A stretch of 64,000 nt of DNA from Candidatus Micrarchaeota archaeon (GTDB lineage: Archaea > Micrarchaeota > Micrarchaeia > Anstonellales > Bilamarchaeaceae): contig JBBSVO010000003.1 of the NCBI GenBank assembly GCA_038046805.1, forward strand, positions 93,963 to 157,962, in the 5' to 3' direction. The first letter of the stretch is position 1, and each line of letters begins with the position of its first letter. The translations under genes were made by a program, and so were the position numbers. The notes below the pieces were generated by a model. That model saw nothing but the letters and a program-made list of their open reading frames with translations. It had not been told where the DNA came from and did no database searches. Shown one piece after another: positions 3,917-4,205 of this stretch.

Positions 3917-4205
3917 GCCCCAATAGCTCAGGGCCCTTTTGACTTCTGAAACCTAAAGACAAAAGCGTTACATTTGAAAAACGTTGTTTCGTTTTTCAAA
4001 ATTTTGAACGATTCGTCGTTCAAATCTTCGGAAAAGTCCTTAGGCAGCATAAATCAAAAGGGACGAGTAATGGTAGAGCGCCTCTCTCGTACTTGCTGGT
4101 TCTGAGTCAAGCGTTTTGTGTCTTATTATCCAAGACACTGAACTGGAAACTCGAAACCGGAAACAGGCAAGGAGGAGGTCGGGAGTTCAAATCTCTCTTG
4201 GGGCT
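3917..4205 (+). tRNA. tRNA-Thr(CGU) with two introns: about 136 nt in the D-loop (3932-4067) and about 78 nt at 37/38 (4092-4169)
   Basis: Acceptor GCCCCAA/TTGGGGC, D stem GCTC/GAGC split by the insert, anticodon stem CCTCT/GGAGG with loop CT-CGT-A, T arm GGGAG-TTCAAAT-CTCTC. Confidence 0.8.
3973..4023 (+). repeat. diverged tandem-hairpin module inside the tRNA-Thr D-loop intron
   Basis: TTTGAAAAACG-TTGTT-CGTTTTTCAAA followed by TTGAACG-ATTCGT-CGTTCAA. Same architecture and flanks as the module at 22434-22493. Confidence 0.6.

What the first reader, a model, noticed from the sequence alone, without database searches (positions are those of the whole stretch)
3932..4067. One D-loop intron family shared by tRNA-Thr, tRNA-Lys and (in a shorter form) tRNA-Gly
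The D-loop introns at 3932-4067 and 22391-22530 align end to end. The 5' part reads CCTTTTGACTTCTGAAACCTAAAG(A/G)CAAAA. Two central hairpins follow. The 3' part reads CGAAAAG(T/C)CCTTAGG(C/T)AGCA...TCAAA. ACCTAAAGRC can pair with GYCCTTAGG, with a G-C to A-T covariation between the copies. CCTTTTGA can pair with TCAAAAGG/TCAAACGG. Together these give a nested multi-helix RNA. The tRNA-Gly intron (1251-1330, minus strand) begins CCTTTTGGCTGATGAAACCTTA at the same D-loop position but lacks the central hairpin pair. The same intron at the same position in three different acceptor families argues for intron transposition between tRNA genes. The Gly copy looks like the form without the inserted hairpin module.
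Basis: seen in the sequence. Interest (0 to 1): 0.7.

Follow-up and report, generated by a model that had tools for sequence, protein, structure and literature searches.

The report
Mobile tRNA intron family with nested hairpins
Three tRNA genes of an uncultured Micrarchaeota (DPANN) archaeon carry related protein-spliced introns from a family found across this phylum, and the introns' central hairpin pair is a small transposon-associated DNA element that inserted later.

Summary
The tRNA-Thr and tRNA-Lys D-loop introns are 104/136 identical (z = 25.8 against shuffles). The tRNA-Gly intron is a shorter relative (z = 7.8).

The window comes from a Micrarchaeota (DPANN) archaeon. All five tRNA genes I found in it are split. 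Removing the inserts at bulge-helix-bulge (BHB) junctions gives five canonical tRNAs.

A covariance model found the same intron family in other Micrarchaeota genomes. It occurs in tRNA-Gln, Ala, Leu, Lys and Ser, at D-loop, anticodon-loop and T-loop sites. Helices P1 and P2 both show compensatory changes.

Intron similarity does not follow host tRNA or genome relationships. This indicates intron movement between tRNA genes, as already described for Thermoproteales.

The "two central hairpins" are not part of the intron core. The orthologous tRNA-Lys intron exists without the module (L002), with a different 60-nt module (L082), and with the window's module. The window's module is 88% identical to a segment of an 844-bp IS200/IS605 insertion sequence at 40402-41245.

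So this is a three-level nesting: tRNA gene, mobile BHB intron, and a REP-like hairpin doublet associated with a Y1 transposase. It is a new variant of a known kind and moderately interesting. No RNA data were available, and the splicing enzyme was not examined.

The parts
3917..4205 (+). tRNA-Thr(CGU) gene, split by two introns
   Evidence: Joining 3917-3932, 4071-4091 and 4170-4205 gives a 73-nt tRNA that ARAGORN calls tRNA-Thr(cgt). The unspliced gene is not recognised.
3933..4070 (+). D-loop intron (16/17) of tRNA-Thr. Family type 1, long form, with a relaxed BHB: GCTC-AGGG-CCC / GGG-AC-GAGT-AAT.
   Evidence: Sequence. The MFE fold shows P1, P2 and two apical hairpins, z = -3.9. R1 and R2 model hits.
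3974..4027 (.). Degenerate hairpin doublet nested in the apex of the Thr intron (TTTGAAAAACG..CGTTTTTCAAA and TTTGAACGA..TCGTTCAAA)
   Evidence: It sits at the same site as the Lys module and aligns to it at 34/46 positions, z = 7.8. It contains one GAACG-N6-CGTTC hairpin at 4006. Coordinates are approximate.
22376..22630 (+). tRNA-Lys(CUU) gene, split by a D-loop intron and a 37/38 intron (22555-22594)
   Evidence: In-silico splicing gives a 74-nt tRNA-Lys(ctt).
22393..22533 (+). D-loop intron (17/17a) of tRNA-Lys. Family type 1, long form, with BHB TCAG-CTT-GAACC / GGTTT-CTGA-AAT.
   Evidence: Sequence. The MFE fold shows the 4-bp helix, the 3-nt bulge and h'/P1, z = -7.5. R1 and R2 model hits.
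22435..22492 (+). 58-nt hairpin doublet (ATGTC-hairpin A-GAGCATGATC-hairpin B-GACAT) inserted in the intron apex. Boundaries are uncertain by about 3 nt because of a CAT repeat.
   Evidence: It is absent from the orthologous intron in L002. It is 88% identical to window 40936-40987. Hairpin covariation is shown.
1196..1346 (-). tRNA-Gly(UCC) gene, split by one D-loop intron
   Evidence: In-silico splicing gives a 71-nt tRNA-Gly(tcc). ARAGORN on the raw window finds only the 3' part.
1252..1331 (-). D-loop intron (15/16) of tRNA-Gly. Family type 1, short form without the doublet, with a strict hBHBh': GTCT-AGC-AAACC / GGTTT-GGAC-ATC.
   Evidence: Sequence. R1 scores 82 bits and R2 scores 61.5 bits.
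2294..2499 (+). tRNA-Ser(CGA) gene with a 14-nt 37/38 intron (about 2332-2345) and a T-loop intron
   Evidence: Sequence. In-silico splicing gives tRNA-Ser(cga).
2376..2485 (+). T-loop intron of tRNA-Ser. This is a fourth copy of the family in the window (type 2), in which the 5' AGCCUUUUG pairs with the central CAAAAGGCU. The BHB central helix is TTCA/TGAA.
   Evidence: R2 hit at 2379-2429 with a weak E-value of 0.17. Family signature and tRNA context checked by eye.
40402..41245 (-). 844-bp IS200/IS605-family insertion sequence. It carries the tnpA gene (40440-40913, minus strand) and copies of both hairpin-doublet subfamilies (40933-40995 and 41113-41171).
   Evidence: Pfam Y1_Tnp E = 3.5e-29. 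NCBIfam transpos_IS200 scores 103 bits against a cut-off of 55. The same 844 bp lie in a different genomic context in L203/L205, with sharp ends.
32227..32290 (.). Intergenic copy of the hairpin doublet
   Evidence: nhmmer E = 2.6e-19. Sequence.
29063..29125 (.). Intergenic hairpin doublet of the second subfamily (CCCAATTGAACGG..CCGTTCAATGGG plus GATGAACGT..ACGTTCATC). The insertion in the L082 intron has the same CCCATTGAACG...CGTTCAAT type of hairpin.
   Evidence: GAACG-N6-CGTTC hairpins at 29071 and 29099. The resemblance to the L082 insert is by eye.

Best explanation
The three D-loop inserts are archaeal protein-spliced (bulge-helix-bulge) tRNA introns of one sequence family. I found this family in tRNA genes of at least ten other Micrarchaeota genomes.

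Each intron is a long irregular hairpin with these parts:
- P1 (CCUUUUGRC paired with GYCAAAAGG), which is also the intron-side helix h' of the splice motif.
- An internal loop.
- P2, an 8-bp helix.
- A symmetric A4/A4 internal loop (GGCAAAA ... GAAAAGCC).
- A small apical hairpin.

The last 7-9 nt of each copy differ. They pair with the local exon to form the 4-bp central helix of the BHB.

Inferred steps: the pre-tRNA is cut in the two bulges by the tRNA splicing endonuclease, and the exons are joined by the tRNA ligase. In this phylum the endonuclease is the broad-specificity epsilon2 type, according to the literature.

The family spreads between tRNA genes and between positions within tRNAs. 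This is intron transposition or conversion; the mechanism is unknown here, as it is in Thermoproteales.

The two central hairpins of the Thr and Lys copies are a later event. A roughly 58-nt palindromic doublet inserted into the apical loop of the intron. It is harmless there because the intron is discarded. The doublet is REP/REPIN-like or IS200-derived and MITE-like. Its sequence also sits inside an IS200/IS605 element next to the Y1 (HUH) transposase gene. Mobilisation by that transposase is an inference.
For: Organism and setting:
- The window has the archaeal ThrRS editing domain and a short TIM.
- Its nearest relatives are all Candidatus Micrarchaeota.

The inserts are introns:
- BHB motifs can be read at all junctions.
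- In-silico splicing gives five canonical tRNAs.

The inserts form a family:
- z-scores of 25.8 and 7.8 against shuffles.
- Model hits lie inside tRNA-Gln, Ala, Leu, Lys and Ser genes at D, anticodon and T loops in other genomes.

Structure:
- P2: 83.8% of cells paired, 4 of 8 pairs with changes on both sides, 0/500 shuffles reach the covariation score, and G.U pairs are present.
- P1: 82% paired, 4 pairs with changes on both sides, 0/500 shuffles.

Mobility:
- Intron identity (76%) exceeds mature tRNA identity (61%).
- The L029 tRNA-Ala intron is 95% identical to the L055 tRNA-Gln intron over the first 60 nt. Orthologous Gln introns are 72-84% identical.
- L029's own tRNA-Gln has no intron.
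- Among 28 orthologous tRNA-Gln genes, 6 have no intron and the rest have introns at up to four different sites.

The module is a nested insertion:
- L002 and L082 are identical across the aligned region except for a clean 60-nt insertion.
- The window carries a different doublet 4 nt away.
- The doublet is dispersed: 10 GAACG-N6-CGTTC hairpins in the window against 0.35 expected, none inside a confident gene. Copies occur in at least 5 genomes.
- Its hairpins covary: 10 of 16 pairs, 94-98% paired, almost no G.U. Both orientations occur.
- It lies inside an 844-bp IS with a Y1 transposase.
Against: - No RNA data: splicing, splice sites and intron fate are all inferred.
- The splicing endonuclease and ligase genes are not in the window and were not looked for elsewhere.
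- The Thr junction is a relaxed BHB (a 4-nt and a 2-nt asymmetric loop), so its exact cut site is uncertain.
- The core blocks CCUUUUG, GGCAAAA and GAAAAGCC are invariant across lineages whose AlaRS is only 55-60% identical. That is more conservation than a purely selfish, freely drifting intron should keep, so an extra constraint is unexplained.
- The doublets lie inside the IS rather than at its ends. The IS ends carry a different hairpin (ACGGC-N4-GCCGT), so it is not shown that this transposase moves the doublets.
- Sampling is biased: about 1.4 Mb, all taken around the AlaRS gene.
Confidence: 0.8

Rival explanations
1. The conserved intron core is a functional RNA in its own right, and mobility is secondary. 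Examples: a stable circular intron RNA acting in trans, a protein-binding module, or a conformational switch that times splicing.
For: - Sequence blocks are invariant, linkers are variable and stems covary across distant genomes and three insertion contexts. This is the pattern of a constrained RNA.
- A second helix, mutually exclusive with P1, also shows compensatory changes. It pairs the 5' NNNCCUUUUG with the central CAAAAGNNN: 86% paired, 0/500 shuffles. It is the main helix in the T-loop (type 2) copies.
Against: - No Rfam family matches.
- No box C/D, H/ACA, K-turn or ribozyme core is conserved.
- The short forms do not fold better than shuffles (z about -1).
- 6 of 28 tRNA-Gln orthologues have no intron at all, so no copy is indispensable at a given site.
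- The covariation in the alternative helix could reflect GC-content drift between two clades.
Confidence: 0.2
2. The intron is a DNA-level miniature transposon. Its terminal inverted repeats (CCTTTTGRC ... GYCAAAAGG) happen to form the h' helix, and it is tolerated in tRNA genes because the broad-specificity endonuclease removes it.
For: - The ends are inverted repeats, and there is an extra internal copy of the right-end motif.
- A family-like copy in L027 (about 14008-14061, minus strand; weak R2 hit, E = 0.088) lies outside tRNA exons. The 22-nt sequence AGGGTTCGCAAACTGGCAAAAT occurs just upstream of it and again about 50 nt downstream.
- A published review suggests that archaeal intron gain proceeds at the DNA level (PMC4090602).
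Against: - No target-site duplications flank the tRNA copies.
- G.U pairs occur in P1 and P2, which argues for selection on the RNA strand.
- All copies I could orient lie in the sense orientation of the host tRNA. A DNA transposon would insert both ways, although antisense copies would be lethal and therefore unseen.
- No candidate transposase is linked to them.
Confidence: 0.15
3. The similarity is vertical. The intron was inherited through duplication of a tRNA gene that later changed identity, so no intron moved.
For: tRNA gene duplication followed by anticodon change is known in general (my own background knowledge; not checked here).
Against: - The mature Thr, Lys and Gly tRNAs are only 54-61% identical, which is the universal tRNA background, while the introns are 76% identical.
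- The same family sits at D, anticodon and T loops.
- A near-identical intron occurs in tRNA-Ala of one genome and tRNA-Gln of another.
Confidence: 0.03
4. The inserts are assembly artefacts or mark decaying tRNA pseudogenes.
For: The window is a metagenome-assembled sequence. ARAGORN and Rfam do not recognise the unspliced genes.
Against: - The same loci occur in independent assemblies (L001, L002, L082).
- All five tRNAs I found in the window are split, yet each restores a perfect cloverleaf after BHB-guided splicing.
- The splice motifs are intact.
Confidence: 0.02

Closest known systems
Transposed tRNA intron families of Thermoproteales (Fujishima et al. 2010, as summarised in PMC4090602 and PMC4033280)
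   Same: [quoted passage not shown] They are interpreted as large-scale intron transposition of unknown mechanism.
   Different: - The phylum is different: Micrarchaeota (DPANN), which has the epsilon2 endonuclease rather than the (alpha-beta)2 type.
- The family here keeps invariant sequence blocks and covarying helices between lineages whose AlaRS is only 55-60% identical.
- It carries nested IS200-associated hairpin doublets.
- I could not read the 2010 paper itself, so no sequence comparison with the Thermoproteales families was made.
Non-canonical tRNA introns of ARMAN-2 / Ca. Micrarchaeum acidiphilum, and the epsilon2 splicing endonuclease (PMC3239211, PMC3488258, PMC12397907)
   Same: The phylum is the same. 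ARMAN-2 also has a very high fraction of split tRNA genes, introns at D-arm and T-loop sites (for example 59/60), and relaxed BHB motifs.
   Different: In the passages I searched, those papers describe short introns (13-25 nt) and the enzyme. I found no mention of a conserved long intron family, its movement between tRNAs, or nested repeats.
REP / REPIN elements with RAYT transposases, and IS200/IS605-derived miniature palindromic elements of bacteria (PMC3733652)
   Same: This comparison concerns the central hairpin module. It has units with an 8-bp stem and a 4-nt loop, arranged as dimers. It has a TGTC tag, which that paper lists as a variant of the CGTC tag. It is dispersed in non-coding DNA, shows presence/absence polymorphism, and lies next to a Y1 (HUH) transposase gene.
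   Different: - The host is archaeal.
- The transposase scores as a canonical IS200/IS605 TnpA and is below the cut-off for the RAYT model.
- The doublets lie inside the IS rather than flanking it.
- They land in loops of other hairpins, including the apex of a tRNA intron.
Intron-encoded box C/D sRNA of euryarchaeal tRNA-Trp
   Same: It is a structured RNA housed in an archaeal BHB tRNA intron.
   Different: No conserved box C/D pair or K-turn is present here. CUGAUGA occurs only in the Gly copy, and there is no Rfam hit.

Membership tests
Archaeal BHB (bulge-helix-bulge) tRNA intron | The insert lies in a tRNA gene, and its removal restores a canonical tRNA. | tested here: met
   Five of five spliced sequences are called as tRNA-Thr, Lys, Gln, Ser and Gly by ARAGORN. 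The unspliced genes are not.
Archaeal BHB (bulge-helix-bulge) tRNA intron | The splice sites lie in two 3-nt bulges separated by a 4-bp helix (hBHBh'), or in a relaxed HBh'/hBH version. | tested here: met
   Read from the sequence. Gly: GTCT-AGC-AAACC / GGTTT-GGAC-ATC (strict). Lys: TCAG-CTT-GAACC / GGTTT-CTGA-AAT, with a weak outer helix. Thr: GCTC-AGGG-CCC / GGG-AC-GAGT-AAT (relaxed). The Lys motif also appears in the MFE fold.
Archaeal BHB (bulge-helix-bulge) tRNA intron | The host encodes a splicing endonuclease able to cut non-canonical or relaxed motifs, plus an RtcB-type ligase. | not tested
   Neither gene was seen among the window ORFs I scanned. The literature shows an epsilon2 enzyme with this specificity in ARMAN-1 and ARMAN-2 (PMC3239211, PMC4033280).
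Archaeal BHB (bulge-helix-bulge) tRNA intron | There is RNA evidence of excision at the predicted sites. | not testable with these tools
   No transcriptome data were available.
Transposed tRNA-intron family (Thermoproteales type) | Closely similar introns occur in tRNAs of different isoacceptors, and the introns are more similar than the exons. | tested here: met
   Thr and Lys introns are 76% identical against 61% for the mature tRNAs. The L029 Ala intron is 95% identical to the L055 Gln intron over the first 60 nt.
Transposed tRNA-intron family (Thermoproteales type) | The same family occurs at different positions, canonical and non-canonical. | tested here: met
   D-loop positions 15/16 to 17/17a, anticodon-loop 37/38 and the T-loop.
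Transposed tRNA-intron family (Thermoproteales type) | Orthologous tRNA genes differ in presence or absence of the intron. | tested here: met
   Among 28 tRNA-Gln(CTG) orthologues, 6 have no intron and the others have 1-3 introns at four sites.
REP/REPIN or IS200/IS605-derived miniature element (central hairpin module) | Short palindromic units, usually paired, in many copies in non-coding DNA. | tested here: met
   10 GAACG-N6-CGTTC hairpins in the window against 0.35 expected, none inside a confident gene. Copies occur in at least 5 genomes. Hairpins are 94-98% paired, with 10 of 16 pairs covarying.
REP/REPIN or IS200/IS605-derived miniature element (central hairpin module) | Evidence of mobility (filled and empty sites). 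| tested here: met
   L002 and L082 are identical across the aligned region apart from a 60-nt insertion. The window has a different doublet 4 nt away.
REP/REPIN or IS200/IS605-derived miniature element (central hairpin module) | Association with a Y1 (HUH) tyrosine transposase. | tested here: inconclusive
   Copies of both doublet subfamilies lie inside an 844-bp IS, upstream of its tnpA: one 20 nt from the start codon (40933-40995), the other about 200 nt away (41113-41171). However, the protein matches the IS200 model (103 bits) and not the RAYT model (22.7 bits against a cut-off of 80). The IS ends carry a different hairpin.
Box C/D sRNA-containing intron | Conserved box C (RUGAUGA) and box D (CUGA) forming a K-turn. 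| tested here: not met
   CUGAUGA occurs only in the Gly copy. The corresponding region is variable across the family. There is no Rfam hit in the introns.
Self-cleaving or self-splicing RNA (hammerhead, group I) | A conserved catalytic core. | tested here: not met
   CUGAUGA and GAAA in the Gly copy are not in hammerhead register and are not conserved. Rfam at E <= 5 finds nothing. At 80-141 nt the introns are too small for a group I intron.

The most novel reading that the evidence does not exclude
The invariant core (CCUUUUGRC, GGCAAAA, GAAAAGCC, plus two mutually exclusive helices that both covary) may be the cis-acting apparatus of a self-propagating BHB intron. On this reading it is a defined mobile element with recognisable ends that moves between tRNA genes, and possibly between genomes, of Micrarchaeota. 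If so, it would be a tractable model for the unsolved question of how archaeal tRNA introns transpose. The nested IS200-type doublets would show that single-stranded-DNA transposition operates on the same loci.
Probability: 0.25. Interest if true: 0.75.

Novelty: new variant of a known kind. Interest (0 to 1): 0.55.

Why it matters
How archaeal tRNA genes gain introns at non-canonical sites is an open question. Intron transposition has been inferred for Thermoproteales, but no mechanism is known.

This family has three features that make it useful for that question. It has recognisable invariant blocks. It occurs at three kinds of site in at least seven tRNA species. In one pair of copies the 3' end differs: the L029 tRNA-Ala and L055 tRNA-Gln introns are near-identical over the first 60 nt and diverge only at the end that pairs with the host exon. 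These features give a concrete sequence and structure handle for genome-wide censuses and for experiments with the epsilon2 endonuclease.

The nested hairpin doublets show that tRNA introns act as safe landing sites for a second layer of selfish DNA. They also document REP-like elements associated with IS200/IS605 in a DPANN archaeon.

In practice, none of these five tRNA genes was called correctly: ARAGORN found only a partial tRNA-Gly, and Rfam tRNA matches stayed below the gathering score. tRNA complements of such genomes will therefore be under-called.

Tried and rejected
Functions considered and rejected:
- Hammerhead ribozyme. CUGAUGA and GAAA occur in the Gly copy, but the spacing does not fit, the motifs are absent from the other copies, and Rfam finds nothing.
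- Box C/D or H/ACA guide RNA. There is no conserved box D, K-turn or ACA.
- Group I intron. The inserts are too small and there is no Rfam hit.

Searches that gave little:
- The first DNA-pattern scan of genome contigs returned nothing. The pattern required ACCT. The closest relative found later (L002, UBA10214), which is in that collection, has ACCA at that spot, so my pattern excluded it. I used the second genome scan for AlaRS-anchored loci instead.
- The metagenome pattern scan gave a single locus, L082.
- The viral-contig scan used a two-gap pattern that was too loose. Screening 80 of those loci with model R2 gave one weak hit inside what looks like coding sequence. So there is no evidence for the family on viral contigs, but the test was poor.
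- A tblastn search of the transposase against the 82 Micrarchaeota loci found only the window copy.
- Fujishima et al. 2010 is not held in the library, so the Thermoproteales precedent is cited through two reviews.

Interpretations I withdrew:
- I first treated the L055 14468-14532 hit as a sense copy. It lies next to a duplicated tRNA-Gln 3' end and its orientation is ambiguous.
- I did not try to prove that this TnpA moves the doublets. The IS ends carry a different hairpin.
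Full report
WHAT IS THERE

The window is archaeal. It encodes a threonyl-tRNA synthetase with the archaea-specific editing domain and a short triosephosphate isomerase, and it has a lone 5S rRNA. An identical AlaRS lies on a contig of assembly GCA_964366365.1. All 80 closest AlaRS loci in the species-representative genome collection are labelled Candidatus Micrarchaeota or close relatives. 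The best is UBA10214 at 90% identity. The organism is therefore a DPANN archaeon of the phylum that includes ARMAN-1 and ARMAN-2.

ARAGORN finds only one partial tRNA in 64 kb, and Rfam finds none above threshold. By reading the sequence I found five tRNA genes, all of them interrupted:
- tRNA-Gly(UCC), 1346..1196, minus strand
- tRNA-Ser(CGA), 2294-2499
- tRNA-Thr(CGU), 3917-4205
- tRNA-Gln(CUG), 18189-18328
- tRNA-Lys(CUU), 22376-22630

I placed the splice sites by the archaeal bulge-helix-bulge rule (a cut after the second nucleotide of each 3-nt bulge, with the bulges separated by a 4-bp helix). Removing the inserts at those sites gives five sequences that ARAGORN calls as canonical tRNAs with the expected anticodons. 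The unspliced genes are not recognised.

CHECKING THE OBSERVATION

The Thr D-loop intron (3933-4070) and the Lys D-loop intron (22393-22533) align end to end with 104/136 identical positions, z = 25.8 against dinucleotide shuffles. The Gly intron (1331..1252) is a shorter relative: z = 7.8 against Lys and 4.5 against Thr. The tRNA-Gln D-loop intron is unrelated (z = -1.3). The shared 5' motif occurs exactly three times in the window, against 0.07 expected.

The short forms do not fold better than shuffles. The introns sit at adjacent D-loop positions, not the same one: 15/16, 16/17 and 17/17a.

The splice motifs, read, are:
- Gly: strict (GTCT-AGC-AAACC / GGTTT-GGAC-ATC)
- Lys: nearly strict (TCAG-CTT-GAACC / GGTTT-CTGA-AAT)
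- Thr: relaxed (GCTC-AGGG-CCC / GGG-AC-GAGT-AAT)

THE FAMILY IS WIDESPREAD IN THE PHYLUM

I built a covariance model from the core of the three introns plus the orthologous Lys intron of UBA10214. I then built a second model centred on the conserved 5' block and helix P2. I searched both against about 1.4 Mb of Micrarchaeota DNA (the window plus 81 loci). Every significant hit I inspected lies inside a tRNA gene:
- tRNA-Gln D-loop: L018 and L010 (L010 is degenerate and scored weakly, E = 0.018-0.42)
- tRNA-Gln anticodon loop: L027, L034, L055
- tRNA-Ala anticodon loop: L029
- tRNA-Leu anticodon loop: L013
- T-loop of tRNA-Lys: L030
- T-loop of tRNA-Ala: L046
- T-loop of tRNA-Gln: L024 (weak hit, E = 0.43; assigned by eye)
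- T-loop of the window's own tRNA-Ser, 2376-2485 (weak hit, E = 0.17; assigned by eye)

The invariant blocks are CYTTTTG-C near the 5' splice site, G-CAAAA, and AAAA(G)CC.

Helix P2 is 83.8% paired, has changes on both sides in 4 of its 8 pairs, and contains several G.U pairs. No shuffle in 500 reaches its covariation score, and the slid controls are far lower.

Helix P1 is also the intron-side helix h' of the splice motif. It is 82% paired, with 4 pairs changed on both sides and 0/500 shuffles. That alignment was anchored by hand.

A second helix, mutually exclusive with P1, pairs the 5' end with the central CAAAAG block. It also shows compensatory changes: 86% paired, 0/500 shuffles. It is the dominant helix in the T-loop copies. 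I treat it as unexplained, because GC-content drift between two clades could mimic the signal.

EVIDENCE FOR MOVEMENT

- The mature Thr, Lys and Gly tRNAs are 54-61% identical. That is less than the introns at 76%.
- In a survey of 28 orthologous tRNA-Gln(CUG) genes, six have no intron. The rest carry one to three introns at 15/16, around 26/27, at 37/38 or in the T-loop, and these belong to several sequence families. D-loop 15/16 is used by many unrelated introns, so the shared position says little by itself.
- The tRNA-Ala intron of L029 is 95% identical over its first 60 nt to the tRNA-Gln intron of L055. The two diverge only at the 3' end that must pair with the host exon. Orthologous tRNA-Gln introns of L027, L034 and L055 are 72-84% identical. 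L029's own tRNA-Gln is intron-less. The AlaRS proteins of L029 and L055 are 81% identical.

This incongruence is what intron transposition, or conversion between tRNA genes, predicts. The phenomenon is known from Thermoproteales (Fujishima et al. 2010, cited through PMC4090602 and PMC4033280). Micrarchaeota are known for heavily disrupted tRNA genes and for an epsilon2 endonuclease that cuts relaxed motifs at non-canonical sites (PMC3239211). In the papers I searched I found no description of this intron family.

THE TWO CENTRAL HAIRPINS ARE A NESTED, SEPARATE ELEMENT

The orthologous tRNA-Lys D-loop intron exists in three states:
- UBA10214 (L002) lacks the hairpins: ...CGTTTCAT|CGAAAAG...
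- A metagenome contig (L082) is identical to L002 across the aligned region, except for a clean 60-nt insertion of a different hairpin pair four nucleotides away.
- The window carries its own 58-nt doublet at 22435-22492.

The window's doublet is 88% identical to window 40936-40987 and resembles 32227-32290. Copies also occur in L019, L025, L018 and L009. In L019 and L025 the doublet sits just 3' of a tRNA-Lys gene, inside the loop of a larger hairpin.

Hairpins of the form GAACG-N6-CGTTC occur ten times in the window against 0.35 expected, none inside a confident gene.

Across seven copies the two hairpins are 94-98% paired, and 10 of 16 pairs show compensatory changes (0/500 shuffles). There is almost no G.U pairing, and the element occurs in both orientations. 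These last two points suggest selection at the DNA level rather than the RNA level.

The Lys doublet is closer to the copy at 40936 (88%) than to the Thr doublet (34 of 46 aligned positions). So the two introns were probably hit independently at the same apical site. The alternative, inheritance followed by precise loss in the L002 lineage, is not excluded.

LINK TO A TRANSPOSASE

The ORF at 40440-40913 (minus strand) is a Y1 (HUH) transposase. Pfam Y1_Tnp gives E = 3.5e-29. The NCBIfam IS200/IS605 equivalog scores 103 bits against a cut-off of 55. The REP-associated transposase model scores only 22.7 bits against a cut-off of 80.

The doublet copy at 40933-40995 lies 20 nt upstream of its start codon. 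A doublet of the L082 subfamily lies at 41113-41171.

Short contigs from Hainich groundwater metagenomes carry the identical protein. One (L203) shares 844 bp with the window at 98.9% identity (window 40402-41245), with unrelated flanks on both sides. L205 shares the same right-hand boundary. Both ends are sharp. So this is an insertion sequence present at two or more sites, and both doublets are part of it.

The IS ends carry a different hairpin, ACGGC-N4-GCCGT. Whether this enzyme moves the doublets is therefore an inference, not a result. The closest analogues are bacterial REP/REPIN elements and IS200/IS605-derived miniature palindromic elements. The TGTC tag, 8-bp stems, 4-nt loops and dimer arrangement match the CGTC-type REPs described in PMC3733652.

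HOW IT MOST LIKELY WORKS

Shown here:
- the gene structure, the splice motifs and the restoration of canonical tRNAs;
- family membership in other genomes;
- covariation of the helices;
- incongruent distribution of the introns;
- insertion polymorphism of the doublet;
- the IS and its transposase.

Inferred:
- cleavage by an epsilon2-type endonuclease and ligation by RtcB;
- the fate of the intron;
- the route by which introns move;
- mobilisation of the doublets by the Y1 transposase on single-stranded DNA, with hairpin loops as preferred targets.

The strong conservation of the three sequence blocks is not explained by splicing needs alone. It leaves room for either a cis-acting role in propagation or an RNA function.

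LIMITS

- No RNA data were available.
- Only the window of this genome was available, together with about 1.4 Mb of relatives, all sampled around one gene.
- My first genome-wide DNA pattern was too specific, and my viral pattern was too loose.
- E-values from the home-made models are rough. Several weak hits were accepted only after I inspected their tRNA context by eye.

VERDICT

This is a new variant of a known kind: a mobile family of BHB tRNA introns found across many Micrarchaeota genomes, with a second selfish element nested inside it. Interest is moderate (0.55).

Noticed in passing
window 40402-41245 (tnpA at 40440-40913, minus strand): An 844-bp IS200/IS605-family insertion sequence with sharp ends. 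It is present at a second genomic site in Hainich groundwater contigs (L203, L205). It has ACGGC-N4-GCCGT hairpins near both ends and two GAACG-type hairpin doublets upstream of tnpA.
   Followed up: yes
window 22555-22594 (Lys 37/38 intron), 18204-18270 (Gln D-loop intron), 4092-4169 (Thr 37/38 intron); L018 T-loop intron; L002 Lys 37/38 intron: Signs of a second, unrelated intron family. A TTGAGTTTAGAGTYT-like motif occurs in the Lys intron and the L018 T-loop intron, with partial matches in the window Gln and L002 Lys introns. Repeated (C/G)GAAAC / CTGGAAAC motifs occur near the 3' ends of several introns, including the Thr 37/38 intron and T-loop introns in other genomes. Seen by eye only.
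   Followed up: no
L002 about 9600-9680 (minus strand) and L082 about 4478-4556: The tRNA-Lys of the close relatives has an extra GC-rich T-loop intron (GGGTTCAAA[GAGCCCTTCGGGGGGAGTCCCCCC...GGAATGAA]AATCCC). It is absent from the window's orthologue, so this is a recent gain or loss.
   Followed up: partly
L055 about 14440-14540, compared with about 15400-15680: The 3' end of tRNA-Gln and about 40 nt of downstream flank are duplicated roughly 1 kb apart. A family-like hairpin lies next to the partial copy. This looks like the attL/attR scar of an element integrated into the tRNA gene.
   Followed up: partly
L027 about 13950-14070 (minus strand): A family-like copy (TCAACTTTTGTC...GGCAAAAGTTGA...) lies about 40 nt downstream of tRNA-Gln, outside any tRNA exon I could see. 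The 22-nt sequence AGGGTTCGCAAACTGGCAAAAT occurs just upstream of it and again about 50 nt downstream. In L059 (about 14355-14451, minus strand) a copy directly follows a tRNA-Lys 3' end.
   Followed up: partly
window 2613-3860 (+): A 415-aa protein with a GGDEF diguanylate-cyclase domain (Pfam E = 4e-33). From my own background knowledge, c-di-GMP signalling proteins are uncommon in archaea, so this is unexpected in a small DPANN genome.
   Followed up: no
window 32150-32290 and 29063-29125: Intergenic regions packed with three to five consecutive short hairpins of the GAACG/CGTTC and AAACG/CGTTT types. This resembles a cluster of REP-like elements.
   Followed up: partly
window 39276-40391 and 43035-44084 (+): Two paralogous DUF1246/DUF1297 proteins lie about 2.6 kb apart on either side of the IS. 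From memory, this domain pair belongs to archaeal purine-biosynthesis ATP-grasp enzymes; I did not check this.
   Followed up: no
window 51205-51318 (-): A stand-alone 5S rRNA gene (Rfam 71 bits), not linked to 16S or 23S rRNA within the window.
   Followed up: no
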